Shown: one piece after another, positions 7,455 to 14,455 of the stretch
How positions within the stretch are numbered: the stretch's first letter is position 1
Layout of the letters: each line of letters begins with the position of its first letter
Notes under the pieces: generated by a model
The model's database searches: none
Told to the model about the DNA's origin: nothing
Seen by the model: only the letters and a program-made list of their open reading frames with translations
NCBI RefSeq assembly: GCF_041886205.1
Contig: NZ_CP169029.1
Direction: 5' to 3' (one strand)
Source of the DNA: Escherichia coli
Lineage (GTDB): Bacteria > Pseudomonadota > Gammaproteobacteria > Enterobacterales > Enterobacteriaceae
Length of the DNA: 64,000 nucleotides
Program-made: the position numbers and the translations under genes

Positions 7455-8275
7455 AGATGAATAAATCCGTCGTAGACATGTACCGCCGGGCCAGTCATAT
7501 ATAACGGGTGACCCGGACCTTTCCAGGCGATATCAAGACGACCGCCGGGGAGTTCCACGCGTACTTCTTCGGCCAGCAAACCTTGCTGAATCCCTACCGC
7601 CACCGCCGCACATGCGCCGCTGCCGCAGGCCTGGGTTTCTCCTGCCCCACGCTCATAGACGCGTAAACGAATATGCTCGCGCTTAACCACTTGCATAAAA
7701 CCGATATTGGCGCGCTCCGGAAAACGTTCGTGGCTTTCCAGAACAGGACCAAGCGTTTCTACCGCCGCAGTATCGACATCATCGACCTGAATCACGCAAT
7801 GCGGATTTCCCATCGACACCACGCCGCATAAGATTGTCTGCTCGGCAGCGCGCATAATATAGGTCTTTTCCGCTTTGTTAGCGCGAAACGGCACGGCAGA
7901 AGGTTCGAAGTTGGGTTCGCCCATATTTACGCGGACCAGATCGTCATCGGTGACGGTCAGAACCATCCGCCCGTTGGCGGTGCTGACGCGGATATCGCGC
8001 TTATTGGTCAGCCCTTTCAGACGCACGAAACGGGCAAAGCAGCGCGCGCCGTTGCCGCACTGCGCCACTTCACTGCCATCAGCATTGAAAATGCGATAGT
8101 GAAAATCCAGTTCAGGATCATACGGCGGCTCAACCACCAGCAACTGATCAAACCCTACCCCCAGGTGCCGATCCGCCAGGCGACGAATCAGTTCCGGTGA
8201 AAAAAAGACATTCTGCGTTACCGCGTCGACGACCATAAAATCGTTGCCAAGGCCATGCATTTTCGAGAACTGCAT
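7451..8275 (-). CDS. dapF: Diaminopimelate epimerase DapF
   Basis: Translation [17 protein letters not shown] with catalytic Cys motifs (CGNGARC, CGSGACA); 274 aa. Confidence 0.95.
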
Positions 8276-8311
8276 CATTTACTCCAATCACGCGGGTACA
8301 GAAACTGACTT

Positions 8312-8515
8312 TTAGTAATTCACCTGGGATGGACCATCGCCAGTGGCACGGTCGTTTTTATCCGGCACCGTGGATTGCGTTTGTGTCTCTACCGGTTTGG
8401 TCGGCGGCGGTGCATTTTTATCTGCAGGCGGGAAATAGAGCGGACCTTTCAGACCGCAGCCCGTCAGGCTGAAGAGAGTAAGTAATACAGTGAGTGCCTT
8501 AAACACGTTTTTCAT
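8312..8515 (-). CDS. yifL: Small lipoprotein YifL
   Basis: 67 aa with lipobox LTGC after signal peptide; Pro-rich tail. Confidence 0.85.
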   Translation of the reverse strand: MKNVFKALTVLLTLFSLTGCGLKGPLYFPPADKNAPPPTKPVETQTQSTVPDKNDRATGDGPSQVNY

Positions 8516-8703
8516 TATGGATTGCCTGTAAAGTTCATCGCTTTCTGCTTTCTATCATCGCAGGAGAAGGCGTAAAAGCAAGCGTTTAGCGACTCTTTAT
8601 GAAGTCTGAAAAGTGAGGAAATGCTGCGAGTATAACGCTTACTCGTGGGGATTTATGTTTTGCTGGTAGTTTCGTGATCGGCACCTCGCGCCAGGATGGC
8701 TTT

Positions 8704-10182
8704 ATGCACTATCGCAATGTGGTTTGTTTGTTGTCTTGTTCGTTGTTTTTATCGTCGGCATGGGGATGTCGGCTTGATGAGCCGGAACATAATATTTACC
8801 AGAAACAGGGAAAAGGCGTGGTGTACCTGCGCCCTTATAAAGAAACAAATCTTTCTCTACCTGACGTGAATTACAAGAGTTTGCGTCGTTTACCTAATTT
8901 ATTAATAGACGCAACAACACAAGATGAATGGAATAAAGAACCACCTCTGACTGATCTAACAACTGACAACCTCTATGAGGGCGCACAAGCCTGGTATCCC
9001 CATTACTCCTGGCATAGCGATGGTCGCTATATCCTCTACGCGGGTGAAGTAGTGCAAAATCCTCACGACGCACCACCCGTCGATATCGCCTCATTCAAGG
9101 CATGGGGAGATTTTGCCGCAGATAAACACAGTCTCTATTTTGAAGGCAAGCGCACCGATAACAATGGCGGGGGAAATCGCTTAGATATCAAAACACTGCA
9201 TCAGGTGGAATTCCGGCCTCCCTGGGATCCTGACTTACTGGGGCTGATATTACGTGACGCTAATTTCTTGTATATCAATGGGCATCGCCTCGCAGATCCC
9301 GATAGTTTCCGTGTGCTGGCACAAAAGTCATGGGATCAACGAGGAAAGTTTTCTACCGCGTTTAATCCCTGTGTGGCTATGCCATTTGGCCCATGGGATA
9401 CCCTGGCTCGTACACGGACCAAAATCCTGATCAACGGCGAACAGCTTGATGCCGACCCGGACACTTTTTCCGTCGTGCGCTGGATGCCCGGCTCACTCTT
9501 GACCTGGCGTGATAAAAACGGGCTGCAGCGTAAAGTCCTCGACAAGGAAAATCTGGCGTGGGATGAGGATTTAACAAAGCACTGTCTGGATTTTTCTCTG
9601 CTGGAAAAGAAAGTGTTCTGGCGTCGGGGGCCTGACTGTAAACAGGAAGAATTACCGGGACTCGATCCGGAACAGTTTCACCCCATCAGTGATGCTGTCG
9701 CACAGTATCAGGACTCGCTTTATACCATCATCGAAACAGAGTCTGGTGACCGCAAGCTGGAGATCGTGAAACTTGATGATCCTAATCTTATTATCAACAA
9801 ACGTTTCAACGCCGGGAAACGCCACGGCTATTTACTTACGCGTGCCGAAGGGTGGCCAAACCATTCCGGTTTACACGTGTTTGAATCTGATGGACCGCTG
9901 ATCTTACTGGATAACCGCTCTCCGGATGAACGCGAAGCCCATCTTAATGACCATCCCTTTTTGCGCAGATGGTATGCCCGCGATAACCGCTACGTTTACA
10001 GCTTTGATGGCGCGCAGCTCTGGCGATACCGCACCGCGGATCCGAAACAAGTTCGCTTAATCTGGAAGGAACAACATTCGGGATATGGCTATGGCGTAAA
10101 TTACAAAACGGGATATCTGGACGGAAAAATTACCGATGACGGCGAATTTATTCCTGCCCCGCGCAATGAGGCGACAAAATGA
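8704..10182 (+). CDS. Exported DKNYY-like repeat protein (paralog A), function unknown; start could be 8674 (GTG) or 8704 (ATG)
   Basis: ORF track 502 aa; N-terminal signal/lipoprotein-like segment (…LFLSSAWGC); repeated blocks such as VDIASFKAWGDFAADKHSLYF, RLADPDSF, DADPDTFSVV, ARDNRYVYSFDG; collinear similarity to the downstream ORF. Confidence 0.7.
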   Translation: MHYRNVVCLLSCSLFLSSAWGCRLDEPEHNIYQKQGKGVVYLRPYKETNLSLPDVNYKSLRRLPNLLIDATTQDEWNKEPPLTDLTTDNLYEGAQAWYPHYSWHSDGRYILYAGEVVQNPHDAPPVDIASFKAWGDFAADKHSLYFEGKRTDNNGGGNRLDIKTLHQVEFRPPWDPDLLGLILRDANFLYINGHRLADPDSFRVLAQKSWDQRGKFSTAFNPCVAMPFGPWDTLARTRTKILINGEQLDADPDTFSVVRWMPGSLLTWRDKNGLQRKVLDKENLAWDEDLTKHCLDFSLLEKKVFWRRGPDCKQEELPGLDPEQFHPISDAVAQYQDSLYTIIETESGDRKLEIVKLDDPNLIINKRFNAGKRHGYLLTRAEGWPNHSGLHVFESDGPLILLDNRSPDEREAHLNDHPFLRRWYARDNRYVYSFDGAQLWRYRTADPKQVRLIWKEQHSGYGYGVNYKTGYLDGKITDDGEFIPAPRNEATK

Positions 10183-11501
10183 ATGGTCAAATAATCACTG
10201 TTGCACTCATCCTGTTGGGGCACATATTTCTGACGCCTGCTGTACAGGCCATAGGGTTCGACTATTACAATGATCACGGTGTTATGTCTTACGGTAAAGG
10301 TTATGGGGAGGATGAGAAAATCATTGCCCAATTTCCGAAGATGAACAGAGCCGATTTGCGCCTTGTGACAAATATATCCGGGGAGCGGGAGTTGGTGGAA
10401 GGCTATATACCCACCGATGAAATAAGCATAAAAAATGAGGAATACCACTGGGTGACAGACGGCCGCGTTATTCTCTGGCGTGGCAAAATCGTTAGCAATC
10501 CACCGGGAACACCCACTGTCGATATTGCCAGCTTTCAGGCTATGGGCCGCTTCGCGGTCGATAAATATAGCCTCTATTTTGACGGACAGCGCACCGAAAG
10601 TAATAGCGGCGCGTCACGTGTTGATCTGGCGACACTAAAAGCTATCGAAGGTAACTCTACCACGCTGGTGGATAGTAAAAATCTCTATTTGTCCGGTCGA
10701 CGTCAGGGGAGCAGCAGTAATGTTACTGTATTAGAAAAAAGATGGTGGGGTATTAATCCACGTCTTATGAGTGTAAACAGAAATTTGTATTCCAATGATC
10801 TGCTTATCCGCAGTGGGCAGAATATTTATTTAAATGGCGTTCACCTTACGGCGAATGCAGACTCATTTGAGATAATTCGCTGGAGACCTCATTCACTGCT
10901 GGTTTTTCGCGACAATAAGGGTCTGCATCGTTATCCCTTTGGTCAATTATCAGGCAAGGCAATACCCGTAGATGATGACGTCTCTTTTGAAGTAGGGGAA
11001 AGTCGCGTTCGCTGGCGTAAACAGCTCACGTCCGACCGTCAGTGGAGCAAGTGGATAGACCTACCAGGTATTGAACCTGAACAATTCCATCTGATTACTG
11101 GCAATATTGCGCAGTATAAAGATCGTCTGTATGTAACAAAATTATCGACTTTTGGTGAAGACCAGCTTGAAATAATTCTGCTGGATTCGCCAGACCTGGT
11201 CATTGATAACTCATTTAATGGCGGCAAACAACATGTTTACTTTATCCGCCAATTACGGTCAAAGAGCGTGCAAATTATTCCAACTAACGGCCCGCTAATT
11301 AAAAACGATCGCTTCGCTTATGACGATCGCAATGTTTATACATGGACCGATACAGAGGTAAGGATTACGCCCTCCCCCTGCCCGGCGAAAACACACGTCA
11401 GAGAAGAGAATGTGCGTGAACTTCACAACAGAGACATTATTATTCCGTTGACGGATGAATCATGCCAGAACGCAGCAGACGAGCAAACTTTGAAGCCCTG
11501 A
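10179..11501 (+). CDS. Exported DKNYY-like repeat protein (paralog B), function unknown
   Basis: ORF track 440 aa; signal peptide MNGQIITVALILLGHIFLTPAVQA; start ATG overlaps upstream stop (ATGA); blocks VDIASFQAMGRFAVDKYSLYF, TANADSFEIIRW, DDRNVYTWTD paralogous to the upstream ORF; AT-rich. Confidence 0.7.
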   Translation: MNGQIITVALILLGHIFLTPAVQAIGFDYYNDHGVMSYGKGYGEDEKIIAQFPKMNRADLRLVTNISGERELVEGYIPTDEISIKNEEYHWVTDGRVILWRGKIVSNPPGTPTVDIASFQAMGRFAVDKYSLYFDGQRTESNSGASRVDLATLKAIEGNSTTLVDSKNLYLSGRRQGSSSNVTVLEKRWWGINPRLMSVNRNLYSNDLLIRSGQNIYLNGVHLTANADSFEIIRWRPHSLLVFRDNKGLHRYPFGQLSGKAIPVDDDVSFEVGESRVRWRKQLTSDRQWSKWIDLPGIEPEQFHLITGNIAQYKDRLYVTKLSTFGEDQLEIILLDSPDLVIDNSFNGGKQHVYFIRQLRSKSVQIIPTNGPLIKNDRFAYDDRNVYTWTDTEVRITPSPCPAKTHVREENVRELHNRDIIIPLTDESCQNAADEQTLKP

Positions 11502-11548
11502 CCCCATGCCGCTATACTGCCGCCATCACTTAAAAACAGGATACAACA

Positions 11549-11869
11549 ATGAACGACAGTGAATTTCATCGCCTGGCTGATCAACTCTGGCTGACCATTG
11601 AAGAACGCCTGGACGACTGGGATGGCGACAGCGATATCGACTGCGAAATCAACGGCGGTGTACTGACCATTACCTTTGAAAACGGCAGCAAAATCATTAT
11701 CAACCGCCAGGAACCGCTCCACCAGGTATGGCTGGCAACCAAACAGGGCGGCTACCATTTTGACCTGAAAGGCGATGAGTGGATTTGCGATCGCAGCGGC
11801 GAAACCTTCTGGGATTTGCTGGAACAGGCGGCGACGCAGCAGGCGGGTGAAACAGTCAGTTTCCGCTAA
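11549..11869 (+). CDS. cyaY: Frataxin homolog CyaY (iron-sulfur cluster assembly)
   Basis: 106 aa, [19 protein letters not shown]...; convergent with cyaA. Confidence 0.95.
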
Positions 11870-11908
11870 GATTGCATGCCGGATAAGCCTCGCTTTCCGG
11901 CACGCTCA

Positions 11909-14455
11909 TCACGAAAAATACTGCTGTAATAGCGGCGTGTCATGATCCTGATTGGCAGGCGGCATGTTACCGATAGATTTTGTGCGGAACGGAATCACCT
12001 GTTCACGACCATCAACCTTCACAATCTGATAGAACTGCGGCAGGTTGAAGTTGATGAAGCTTGAGCCGTAGGTGAAGCGGTCGTGCGATGACGAGTAGAA
12101 GCGACTGACGTCACGCACCAGCTCCTCTTTGCTGCCTTCGCAGTGGTGATACACCTCAACCCGGTTGCTTTCGTCGAGAATGTAGATATTAAAGCCATTC
12201 TCATCTTGCGTTTCTTCGAAAAAGAACTGGATGATCCCTTCGCTGGCAAAGCCGTCCACCACCGCCGGTAATTTGACGTGATTGGTTTCAACCTGCACTG
12301 ACAGGCCGTGCAGTTTGTTATGCGAAATAGCGCCATAAAACTCGATGGCGTTTTCCAGTTTCTGTACCGATACATTCAGGCGTTCGAAGAACAACCCCCA
12401 GGTTTGACCAGAAACGCGCAGCGCCTTGAAGCGTCCGGTTTCCTGGCGGGTGCTGGAAAGACGCAGTTCAATACACTCAGAAACCAGTTGCTGCACGCGA
12501 GTACGGATTAAGCCGCGCAGATGCTGGCTATAACAGAAGACTTCCACGCTATCTGGCGGTGCGGCGTCCTGATGCATTTTGCCGAGAATAGTTTTCAGGG
12601 CTTCGATCATCGATTGCTCGCCGTTGAAGTGCAGCGTACGCACTTCGTTCCACGAGTTGCGGTACAGCAGGTCAACGCTACCTACCAGGCAATTTTGATT
12701 CTCGCCAAAGCTGAAGACATCCAGCTTACGGAAATCAAAATGCACCACCTGATTGCGGAACGCAGCTGTCGGGTCATATTCCAGGTTAACGATAATCGCC
12801 AGATGGCGGATCTCACACGGGCTGTAGAGCGCCTTCGGTGTCGGTGCAGGTAAGCGCAGCGGGAAATGGTGCGACACGTCGGCGACCATCTCCTGCAACT
12901 TAGGCAAATCGACAATGCCGTTACCTTTAATATACAAGCGGGTGCGCGAGGTCAGCAGGCCGTTAAACCATGCCCACGCCACCAGTTTATTCAGGTAACG
13001 GTTATATTCCAGCGGCTGATGGCTGATGATCGACTCAATATTTGGCGCGCGGTTATACAGATACCAACCTGAACGGTTAGCCCGGCCCGGCGGCACATAA
13101 ATAAAGGTCAGATTCGGTTCCGAGAGATCGGGTGAAATCTGCGGGTTTACCAGAGTTACTTTACCTGGCAATGCTTCAAACGCGGCATACAGCTTACGCG
13201 TCAGCACACCGATATCCTGCGGGCTGGCGGAAACGCTAAGGTTATTGCGACGCGCAAAGCGGATCAGATTGCGGTAGCTCTGCATCATCGCGTCGAGCAA
13301 CTCGTTGTGCGCCTCACGCACCTGATCAATCTTCCAGTTAGCGCGGTTATCGAGCATTGCCAGACGAGCATCGTCCCAACCCCACTCGCTCACTAACTGG
13401 CTCAACACTGCGCGACGCCAGCCTACGCAGGCGCGTTCACGGCTGAGCTTTTCGCACACTTTTAAATAGAAGCAGCGACGTACTAAATCCAGACGGGTGA
13501 AATCTTCAATCGCCGTCAGGTATTCAGTAACACGCTCCAGCATCATGCAGTATGGATCGAGACCAAACGATACAATCTCGCCGTCGTGCAAACGCTGTTT
13601 GATATCTTTCGCCAGCAGACGTGGGTTCGGGTATTCCCAGGAATAGGCTTCCAGCAGCAGTGTTTTCAGCACCGCTTTGTATGGGGAATCGATACTCTTG
13701 TAGAGCTGCCAAAGGCTGGCACCAAAGTACTCTTCAGCAGAAAGCGAGCTTAAGCCACCGAGATCCAGCCATTCATTTGGCGTCAGCACGCCCTGCGCGT
13801 AAAGCGTCATCACATAGTCATCGTAATGCTCTTCTTCGTCGCACGGCACCATATTCCACAGAATACGCTTACCGGCGAGACGCACGGCGGTACGATAAAA
13901 TTCGTCAAGCAGCAGTATATGCTGGGTGGAGCCACAATCTTCGCCCCCCAGGCTGCCGCTTTCATTATGACGGAAGCGATTTTCATCAATCAGGAAGAAG
14001 CTGACTTCCACACCCAGCGAGGCGGCCCAGCTTTCCAGCAGGCTGCATTTACGTTGTAGTAACTGGCGCTCTTCGCTATCGAGCCAGGATTGATGACAGA
14101 CCCAGATATCCAGGTCAGAGGAACAACTTTGCCCTACGGACGAGGTGCTGCCCATGGTGTATACACCAGTAATTGGAAGCTCACCTTTCGGCGGATCCTG
14201 TACTGACATTCCACGATACAGTTCAAGCTCGTTCAGGTAGTGGCGTTGAGTTTCATCAGGCGTGTAAAGGCAAATGCCTTTGGGAACGTTACCATCAAGG
14301 TAACCCGGCATTAGCGGATGGTGATAGTGCAACAATGTCGGCAGTAGACTGTAGACCTGTTGGAATGCAGGCCCCATAGCAGCAAGCGCGCGATCCACAC
14401 GCAATTGATTTATGGCATCCAGTCTCTGTTTCAGAGTCTCAATATAGAGGTACAA
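11909..14455 (-). CDS. cyaA: Adenylate cyclase CyaA (class I), TTG start
   Basis: 848 aa; N-terminus (M)[11 protein letters not shown] encoded from TTG codon at 14453-14455. Confidence 0.95.

What the first reader, a model, noticed from the sequence alone, without database searches (positions are those of the whole stretch)
11440..11560. Insertion places the repeat-protein operon directly upstream of and co-oriented with cyaY
Only 47 bp separate the stop of the second inserted gene (11501) from the cyaY start (11549), with no obvious intrinsic terminator in between. A candidate -10 (tatact at about 11512-11517) sits in the gap. Read-through from the inserted operon could therefore alter expression of the frataxin homolog compared with strains lacking the insertion.
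Basis: inference. Interest (0 to 1): 0.4.

Follow-up and report, generated by a model that had tools for sequence, protein, structure and literature searches.

The report
cyaY's own promoter after DKNYY genes
The 47-bp gap in front of the E. coli frataxin gene cyaY holds cyaY's own conserved, already-mapped promoter. The two genes upstream are old residents that K-12-type strains lost by deletion, not a new insertion, so the junction is ordinary.

Summary
The geometry is as described. ORF2 stops at 11499-11501 and cyaY starts at 11549. The gap is 47 bp, the genes are co-oriented, and there is no terminator.

It is the -10 of a full sigma-70 promoter: -35 TTGAAG at 11490-11495, inside ORF2's last codons, with a 17-nt spacer. 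Published mapping puts the cyaY transcription start 24 nt before the ATG in K-12 and O157:H7 EDL933. Their 66 nt upstream of the ATG are identical to the window, so the start falls at 11525.

The "insertion" framing is wrong. K-12, EDL933 and at least 2,484 of 5,426 complete E. coli genomes carry one shared 2,567-bp deletion (window 8861-11427). It keeps the upstream control region, the 5' end of ORF1, the last 74 nt of ORF2, its stop codon and the whole cyaY promoter. Paralogous DKNYY genes occupy the same lptM-cyaY slot in a cryptic Escherichia clade, Citrobacter and Salmonella. In Klebsiella spallanzanii they sit beside lptM.

Read-through into cyaY is physically possible but untested. No sigma-70-like promoter was found upstream of ORF1, and the deletion strains keep the same upstream control region. 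This is an ordinary locus of low interest.

The parts
8516..8703 (.). Divergent control region between lptM (- strand) and ORF1 (+ strand). It is kept intact in the deletion strains. The lptM -10 is TATACT on the - strand at 8629-8634, and the lptM start site is near 8618-8622.
   Evidence: Identity to K-12 is 99.5% and to Escherichia sp. E4385 97.9%. The first ~97 nt are 91-92% identical to Citrobacter and Salmonella. The yifL/lptM start site is at -103 in K-12 and at 107/31/17 in EDL933. No + strand sigma-70-like site of at least 8/12 occurs in 8500-8760.
8704..10182 (+). ORF1, a 492-aa DKNYY-like paralog by the PGAP start (the longest ORF starts at GTG 8674). It has an N-terminal signal or lipoprotein-like sequence (…LSSAWGC).
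   Evidence: Pfam DKNYY scores 21.8 bits, below the 25-bit cut-off. It is 36% identical to ORF2 over 325 aa, E = 1e-61.
10179..11501 (+). ORF2, a 440-aa DKNYY-family protein with a signal peptide. Its start overlaps the ORF1 stop (ATGA). Its last codons carry the cyaY -35.
   Evidence: Pfam PF13644 scores 26.8 bits against a 25-bit cut-off. PGAP names close relatives 'DKNYY family protein'.
8861..11427 (.). The 2,567-bp segment missing in K-12, EDL933 and many other E. coli. This is one shared deletion that fuses the ORF1 5' end to the ORF2 3' end.
   Evidence: BLAST of K-12 (J53) against the window joins 8860 to 11428. The same junction occurs in three diverged remnants. The junction 80-mer is present at >=80% coverage in 2,484 genomes. 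Remnants are annotated as a DKNYY pseudogene in J53 and EDL933.
11490..11495 (+). -35 hexamer TTGAAG of the cyaY promoter, inside the last codons of ORF2 (…Q T L K P stop).
   Evidence: One search reports TTGAAG-17-TATACT, 9/12. Mendoza-Vargas 2009 Table S1 gives the -35 as 'tgcaAACTTTGAAgccc'. It is invariant in the E. coli alleles examined except the L013 type, and in E4385 and Citrobacter.
11499..11501 (+). ORF2 stop codon TGA, lying in the promoter spacer.
   Evidence: The same stop position occurs in Citrobacter, E4385 and the K-12-type remnants.
11513..11518 (+). -10 hexamer TATACT of the cyaY promoter.
   Evidence: The published -10 is 'tgccGCTATACTgccg'. It is also kept in the contig carrying the Salmonella CyaY sequence and in the E. 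coli variant whose -35 is replaced.
11525..11525 (+). Inferred cyaY transcription start (A), 24 nt before the ATG and 7 nt after the -10.
   Evidence: Transferred from K-12 (454 read at -24; RegulonDB distance 24) and from EDL933 Cappable-seq (24). Both have 11483-11548 identical to the window. It has not been mapped in this strain.
11538..11541 (+). Shine-Dalgarno-like AGGA, 7 nt before the cyaY ATG.
   Evidence: Sequence. GGA is invariant in all seven genera or alleles aligned.
11549..11869 (+). cyaY, the 106-aa frataxin homologue and iron donor protein.
   Evidence: Pfam Frataxin_Cyay E = 2.8e-34. RefSeq WP_000999947.1.
11423..11758 (-). Antisense ORF of 111 aa, the counterpart of K-12 'yzcX' (b3808). 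It is probably not a gene.
   Evidence: In K-12 the ORF runs on through the deletion remnant, so its length depends on the allele.

Best explanation
The 47-bp gap and the last codons of ORF2 contain cyaY's own sigma-70 promoter. The -35 is TTGAAG at 11490-11495, the spacer is 17 nt, the -10 is TATACT at 11513-11518, and the start is at A11525. This gives a 24-nt leader with an AGGA ribosome-binding site.

The arrangement is ancestral, not the product of an insertion. A cluster of DKNYY-family paralogs has occupied the lptM-cyaY slot since before Escherichia, Citrobacter and Salmonella diverged. K-12-type strains lost 2,567 bp of it in a single internal deletion that stopped 121 bp short of the cyaY ATG and left the promoter untouched.

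cyaY is therefore transcribed mainly from the same promoter in strains with and without the intact gene pair. Transcripts from the DKNYY genes, if made, would run on into cyaY, because no terminator exists and the untranslated gap is too short for Rho to load. This input is probably minor and is also available to the deletion strains.

Shown: the geometry, the deletion, the synteny, the conservation, and the published start site in identical sequence. Inferred: that the promoter fires in this strain, and that read-through is small.
For: 1. Promoter match TTGAAG-17-TATACT.
2. A 5' end at -24 in K-12 was assigned to exactly these boxes (PMC2760140 Table S1). RegulonDB gives 24, and 5'-triphosphate-specific Cappable-seq in EDL933 gives 24, difference 0 (PMC10469882 supplementary file 6 and methods). 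The tag 25305 is cyaY.
3. Positions 11483-11548 are identical in the window, K-12 and EDL933.
4. Segment 11484-11548 is 98.5% identical to Escherichia sp. E4385 and 84% to Citrobacter FP75. ORF2 coding DNA is only 66-69% identical, and cyaY is 94% and 87%. The -35, -10 and stop are invariant in alignment A1.
5. Deletion: K-12 joins 8860 to 11428. The junction is the same in three diverged remnants. The junction is found in at least 2,484 genomes. The 133-bp stretch 11428-11560 is present in 5,392 of 5,426 genomes.
6. Synteny of DKNYY clusters between lptM and cyaY holds in Citrobacter and E4385. K. spallanzanii has them beside lptM. A contig carrying the Salmonella CyaY sequence has a 670-aa protein 37-47% identical to ORF2.
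7. There is no terminator, and no flanking repeats or mobility genes.
8. No sigma-70-like promoter lies upstream of ORF1.
Against: No start site or transcript has been mapped in a strain with the intact gene pair; both mapped strains carry the deletion. The K-12 454 evidence is a single read that is not specific for 5' triphosphate. The EDL933 analysis screened only 250 bp upstream of start codons, so a start upstream of the remnant (more than 274 bp away) would not have been assigned to cyaY. I could read only one line of that supplementary table. Failing to find a consensus promoter upstream of ORF1 does not exclude an activator-dependent or alternative-sigma promoter that could give strong conditional read-through.
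Confidence: 0.8

Rival explanations
1. Read-through from the two-gene operon contributes substantially to cyaY mRNA. Strains with the intact pair would then express the frataxin homologue differently from strains without it.
For: The genes are co-oriented, the gap is 47 bp and there is no terminator. Translation of ORF2 up to 47 nt before cyaY would protect the transcript from Rho (inference from the established requirement of Rho for roughly 70-80 nt of untranslated RNA). In K-12 and EDL933 the remnant is frameshifted, so Rho polarity could lower read-through there. That would be a real difference between alleles.
Against: No sigma-70-like promoter lies upstream of ORF1. cyaY has its own conserved, mapped promoter. 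The deletion strains keep the same upstream control region (99.5% identical). Many keep an intact 77-aa in-frame mini-ORF that ends at the same stop codon.
Confidence: 0.12
2. Transcriptional interference. RNA polymerase arriving from the DKNYY genes passes over the cyaY promoter and occludes it, so induction of the upstream genes lowers or reshapes cyaY expression rather than adding to it.
For: The cyaY -35 lies inside ORF2 and the -10 is 12 nt after its stop codon, so any upstream transcript must cross the promoter. Promoter occlusion by read-through is an established phenomenon (general knowledge).
Against: There is no evidence that the upstream genes are transcribed strongly enough. An occluding transcript would itself carry cyaY, so the net loss would be small.
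Confidence: 0.04
3. The -24 end is an RNA processing site of a longer transcript, and TATACT is a chance match.
For: The promoter pattern alone is at chance frequency. The K-12 454 method did not select 5' triphosphates, and only one read was found.
Against: Cappable-seq, which captures triphosphorylated ends, gives the same position in EDL933. The end lies 7 nt after a 5/6 -10 that has a 4/6 -35 at a 17-nt spacing. Both hexamers are invariant across genera while the adjacent coding DNA is 66-69% identical.
Confidence: 0.03

Closest known systems
The cyaY promoter and start site of E. coli K-12 recorded in RegulonDB (start codon distance 24) and mapped by Mendoza-Vargas et al. 2009, and by Cappable-seq in O157:H7 EDL933
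   Same: The 66 nt upstream of the ATG are identical, including the -35 TTGAAG, the -10 TATACT and the start nucleotide.
   Different: In those strains the DNA upstream of -97 (relative to the start site) is the deletion remnant. Here it is the intact 3' part of ORF2. No mapping exists for this allele.
The K-12 'DKNYY family protein' pseudogene and yzcX (b3808) annotation between lptM and cyaY
   Same: It is the same locus. The remnant's 5' part matches window 8704-8860 and its 3' part matches 11428-11501.
   Different: The window has the undeleted two-gene form, which at least 1,393 of 5,426 complete genomes cover by >=80%. yzcX is an antisense ORF whose length changes with the allele, 161 aa in K-12 and 111 aa here.
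Promoters embedded in the 3' end of an upstream co-oriented gene, such as internal promoters of the rpsU-dnaG-rpoD and dcw clusters (from general knowledge; not tested here)
   Same: The -35 lies in the coding sequence of the preceding gene, there is no terminator between the genes, and the downstream gene can in principle receive both its own and upstream transcription.
   Different: Co-transcription is documented for those operons. Here it is only possible, and the upstream genes have no recognisable promoter.

Membership tests
Sigma-70 promoter | -35 and -10 hexamers resembling TTGACA / TATAAT with a 16-18 nt spacer | tested here: met
   TTGAAG (4/6), 17 nt, TATACT (5/6), 9/12 in all. As a bare pattern this is at chance frequency (5 found, 5.8 +/- 2.4 expected).
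Sigma-70 promoter | A primary (5'-triphosphate) transcript end 5-9 nt downstream of the -10 | tested here: met
   Taken from the literature for identical sequence in other strains. The end is at -24 from the ATG, which is 7 nt after the -10. Sources are K-12 and EDL933 Cappable-seq. It has not been mapped in this strain.
Sigma-70 promoter | Conservation above that of neighbouring non-essential sequence | tested here: met
   Segment 11484-11548 is 98.5% (E4385) and 84% (Citrobacter) identical, against 66-69% for ORF2. The hexamers are invariant.
Sigma-70 promoter | Loss of transcription on mutating the hexamers | not testable with these tools
   This needs a reporter or mutant experiment.
Intrinsic terminator between ORF2 and cyaY | G+C-rich hairpin followed by a U tract | tested here: not met
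   No site in 11400-11600. The fold z-score is 0.35. The gap has no T run of three or more.
Operon (cyaY as distal cistron of the DKNYY genes) | Same strand, short intergenic distance, no terminator | tested here: met
Operon (cyaY as distal cistron of the DKNYY genes) | A promoter upstream of the first gene | tested here: not met
   No + strand match of at least 8/12 in 8500-8760. Other promoter types are not covered by this scan.
Operon (cyaY as distal cistron of the DKNYY genes) | A transcript spanning the junction | not testable with these tools
   No RNA data exist for an intact-pair strain.
Operon (cyaY as distal cistron of the DKNYY genes) | Conserved adjacency across genomes | tested here: inconclusive
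   Adjacent with a 47-54 bp gap in E4385 and Citrobacter. Separated by a DUF3021 gene in the contig carrying the Salmonella CyaY sequence. Not adjacent in K. spallanzanii.
Insertion / genomic islet | A clean empty site in strains that lack it | tested here: not met
   The strains that lack it carry both ends of the gene pair fused by an internal deletion.
Insertion / genomic islet | Mobility genes, flanking direct or inverted repeats, or a tRNA target | tested here: not met
   No such ORFs. The only repeats are short internal paralog matches and a 13-nt pair that is not at the boundaries.
Insertion / genomic islet | Absence from outgroup genomes at the same site | tested here: not met
   Homologous clusters occupy the slot in Citrobacter, Salmonella and E4385, and lie beside lptM in K. 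spallanzanii. Only the distant Serratia rhizosphaerae has lptM and cyaY directly adjacent, 121 bp apart. Any insertion therefore predates the Escherichia-Salmonella split.
Insertion / genomic islet | Atypical base composition | tested here: inconclusive
   GC is 0.43-0.52 across 8500-11500 against 0.52-0.60 in the flanking genes. The dip is modest.
DKNYY family (Pfam PF13644) | Score at or above the Pfam gathering threshold (25 bits) | tested here: met
   ORF2 scores 26.8 bits, so it passes. ORF1 scores 21.8 bits and does not pass, but it is a clear paralog of ORF2 (36% identity, E = 1e-61).

The most novel reading that the evidence does not exclude
In the roughly one quarter of E. coli that keep the intact DKNYY pair, cyaY would double as the last cistron of a conditionally induced envelope-protein operon. 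The natural alleles would then form a series with measurably different frataxin-homologue expression. Those alleles are the intact pair, the in-frame 77-aa mini-ORF, the frameshifted remnant open to Rho polarity, and the variant whose -35 is replaced.
Probability: 0.1. Interest if true: 0.35.

Novelty: already known. Interest (0 to 1): 0.13.

Why it matters
CyaY modulates iron-sulfur cluster assembly, so strain-specific control of it would matter for iron and oxidative-stress physiology. The evidence points the other way. The promoter is the recorded one, it is identical in strains with and without the upstream genes, and the evolutionary event was a deletion that spared it. The useful result is a corrected history of the locus: the K-12 state is derived, and yzcX is most likely an annotation artefact. 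It also supplies a ready set of natural alleles should anyone wish to test read-through.

Tried and rejected
1. Start-site supplements. There were no hits for cyaY or its coordinates in PMC4782308, PMC6131387 or PMC3415461, where stored files may be truncated. No supplements are held for PMC8848933, PMC11092163 or PMC4161252. PMC4288677 is not held.
2. Literature. Phrase searches for cyaY promoter, transcription, mRNA or expression returned nothing. 'DKNYY' appears in one unrelated paper.
3. The 'cyaY-yzcX divergent excludon' of PMC12288877 was considered as evidence for a long cyaY leader. I rejected it because the two annotated CDSs overlap, so the overlap call is trivial.
4. The genome-contig scan with ORF2 gave only two loci, both E. 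coli-like. Synteny was obtained instead from protein search plus contig look-ups.
5. The terminator-like hairpin at 8624-8648 was rejected as a terminator. It overlaps the lptM -10 on the other strand and lies upstream of ORF1.
6. The terminator-like site at 10799-10821 inside ORF2 was treated as chance: 2 sites found against 3.9 +/- 2.1 expected.
7. Function of the DKNYY proteins: NCBIfam, PADLOC and PDB sequence searches gave nothing significant. I did not pursue structure prediction because it does not bear on the junction.
8. An RNA element in the gap: Rfam found nothing.

Full report
**What the window is.** Positions 8200-12000 are 100% identical to the chromosome of E. coli strain LHM10-1, and 5,425 of 5,426 complete E. 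coli genomes match part of this stretch. The layout is as follows:
- dapF and lptM on the - strand, with lptM at 8312-8515.
- ORF1 on the + strand at 8704-10182 by the PGAP start (the longest ORF starts at 8674).
- ORF2 on the + strand at 10179-11501.
- A 47-bp gap.
- cyaY on the + strand at 11549-11869 (Pfam Frataxin_Cyay, E = 2.8e-34).
- cyaA, convergent with cyaY.

ORF1 and ORF2 are paralogs, 36% identical with E = 1e-61. Both match Pfam DKNYY weakly, at 21.8 and 26.8 bits against a 25-bit cut-off. NCBIfam, PADLOC and PDB sequence searches return nothing significant for them.

**Checking the observation.** The ORF2 stop is TGA at 11499-11501 and the cyaY ATG is at 11549, so the gap is 11502-11548, 47 bp.

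No intrinsic terminator is present:
- The scan finds no terminator-like site near the gap.
- The RNA fold of 11440-11580 is no better than shuffles, z = 0.35.
- The gap has no T run.
- Rfam finds nothing in 8200-12100.

**The -10 belongs to a real, known promoter.** The scan pairs TATACT with a -35 TTGAAG at 11490-11495 and a 17-nt spacer. On its own this is a chance-level pattern, with 5 sites found against 5.8 +/- 2.4 expected. Two independent lines make it real.

The first line is published mapping. Table S1 of Mendoza-Vargas et al. 2009 (PMC2760140) lists a cyaY 5' end at -24 from the start codon. It assigns that end to the boxes 'AACTTTGAA' and 'GCTATACT'. This rests on one 454 read that was not selected for triphosphate ends. 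The O157:H7 EDL933 Cappable-seq study (PMC10469882) compares RegulonDB distances with its own triphosphate-specific starts. Its table gives 'cyaY 24 | 25305 | 24 | 0', and EDL933_RS25305 is cyaY. Positions 11483-11548 are identical in the window, K-12 and EDL933, so the start transfers to A11525, 7 nt after the -10.

The second line is conservation:

| Comparison | 11484-11548 | ORF2 coding DNA | cyaY |
|---|---|---|---|
| Escherichia sp. E4385 | 98.5% | 66% | 94% |
| Citrobacter sp. FP75 | 84% | 69% | 87% |

The -35, the stop codon in the spacer and the -10 are invariant in that alignment. They are also invariant in the diverse E. coli alleles examined, with one exception described below.

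**The 'insertion' is the ancestral state.** K-12 (J53, MG1655) is not empty at this site. PGAP annotates a 'DKNYY family protein' pseudogene between lptM and cyaY. BLAST of the K-12 locus against the window joins window 8860 directly to 11428. K-12 therefore lacks 2,567 bp from inside the gene pair. It retains the lptM-ORF1 control region (99.5% identical), about 157 nt of ORF1, the last 74 nt of ORF2, the stop codon and the whole gap.

The evidence that this is one old deletion:
- Three remnants that differ from each other by several per cent and by small indels share the same junction.
- An 80-mer across the junction is found at >=80% coverage in 2,484 genomes. This is a lower bound, because megablast misses diverged remnants.
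- EDL933 carries the same remnant.

About 1,393 genomes cover >=80% of 8200-12000, which corresponds to the undeleted form. The 133 bp at 11428-11560 occur in 5,392 of 5,426 genomes.

Outgroups settle the polarity:

| Genome | What lies between or beside lptM and cyaY |
|---|---|
| Citrobacter sp. FP75 | Two DKNYY genes, 62% aa identity to ORF2, 54-bp gap to cyaY |
| Escherichia sp. E4385 | Three DKNYY genes, 47-bp gap to cyaY |
| Klebsiella spallanzanii | Four genes beside lptM; cyaY not adjacent |
| Contig carrying the CyaY sequence that NCBI names Salmonella enterica | A 670-aa protein 37-47% identical to ORF2, then a DUF3021 gene, then cyaY |
| Serratia rhizosphaerae | Nothing; lptM and cyaY directly adjacent, 121 bp apart |

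No mobility genes or boundary repeats flank the pair. Its GC content is only modestly lower than that of the flanks. If the cluster ever arrived by insertion, that happened before the Escherichia-Salmonella split.

**Consequences for the read-through idea.** Nothing in the sequence would stop a transcript that reaches the end of ORF2. Translation of ORF2 to within 47 nt of cyaY leaves too little naked RNA for Rho. This last point is inference from the known requirements of Rho.
- cyaY has its own conserved promoter.
- No + strand sigma-70-like site of at least 8/12 exists in 8500-8760 upstream of ORF1. This region holds the lptM promoter on the other strand.
- The supposed insertion-free strains keep the same upstream control region, so they are equally exposed to upstream transcription.

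Many deletion strains even keep an intact in-frame 77-aa ORF1::ORF2 fusion that ends at the same stop codon. That exact protein is seen on at least 1,000 contigs. A real allele difference could still arise through Rho polarity in the frameshifted remnants of K-12 and EDL933, but this is speculation. Neither published start-site data set comes from an intact-pair strain. The EDL933 analysis looked only 250 bp upstream, so read-through is neither shown nor excluded.

**Comparison with what is known, and verdict.** The promoter is the one already recorded for K-12, and the remnant is already annotated as a DKNYY pseudogene. The arrangement works like other promoters embedded in the end of an upstream gene. 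Membership of cyaY in a DKNYY operon is not established: the geometry fits, but there is no recognisable promoter, no transcript evidence, and adjacency is only partly conserved. The finding is a correct description with a mis-polarised history and an untested, probably minor, regulatory consequence. Interest is low.

**What led nowhere.** Several start-site supplements were unavailable or truncated. No paper discusses cyaY transcription. The cyaY-yzcX 'excludon' is uninformative because the annotated CDSs overlap. The genome-collection scan with ORF2 found only E. coli-like loci.

Noticed in passing
L018 605-838 (E. coli strain 500111); equivalent to window 8704-8860 joined to 11428-11501: In many deletion strains the 2,567-bp deletion is in frame. 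It leaves an intact 77-aa ORF with the ORF1 signal or lipobox-like N-terminus fused to the last residues of ORF2, ending at the same TGA 47 bp before cyaY. That exact protein occurs on at least 1,000 contigs and some sources call it 'putative lipoprotein'. In K-12 and EDL933 it is further frameshifted.
   Followed up: partly
window 8516-11548; loci L003, L009/L010, L011, L013, L014, L015: The lptM-cyaY slot is structurally hypervariable. Forms seen are two DKNYY genes (window), DUF3304 plus two genes (L003), DUF3304 plus one 685-aa gene (L014), three genes (L013, and E4385 L009/L010), four genes (K. spallanzanii L011), and a 670-aa gene plus DUF3021 (Salmonella-type contig L015). Intact E. coli alleles differ by up to about 8% over the 3.8 kb (91.8-100% identity), while the flanking promoters are nearly invariant.
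   Followed up: partly
L013 3455-3536 (E. coli strain 23CRST031): This variant has a third small gene (141 aa) and an 82-bp gap. Its homology to the window begins exactly at the -10 TATACT, and the -35 is replaced by unrelated sequence with no good hexamer. About 180 genomes cover less than 80% of 11428-11560 and may include this type. They are natural promoter variants of cyaY.
   Followed up: partly
window 11423-11758 (- strand); K-12 yzcX b3808 in L004 551-1036: K-12's annotated 'protein YzcX' is an ORF antisense to the 5' part of cyaY that runs on through the DKNYY deletion remnant. In the window the corresponding ORF is only 111 aa, because the upstream sequence is ORF2. Its length depends on the deletion, so it is most likely not a real gene.
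   Followed up: partly
window 8624-8648: The hairpin flagged as terminator-like on the + strand overlaps the -10 (TATACT on the - strand, 8629-8634) of the published lptM/yifL promoter. The lptM start is near 8618-8622. It sits upstream of ORF1, not after any gene.
   Followed up: partly
window 8500-8760, + strand: No sigma-70-like promoter of at least 8/12 was found upstream of ORF1. How the DKNYY genes are transcribed is therefore open; candidates include an activator-dependent promoter, an alternative sigma factor or silencing.
   Followed up: no
window 11870-11908: The 39 bp between the convergent stops of cyaY and cyaA hold a REP-like hairpin (GCCGGA…TCCGGC within 'tgccggataag…'). It has no T run on either strand, so neither gene has a canonical intrinsic terminator here.
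   Followed up: no
L005 (JAIJJM010000270.1, labelled 'MAG: Collinsella sp.'): This 4-kb contig of an actinobacterial metagenome-assembled genome encodes ORF2 at 94% identity and carries the E. coli cyaY promoter sequence. It is almost certainly E. coli contamination of the bin.
   Followed up: no
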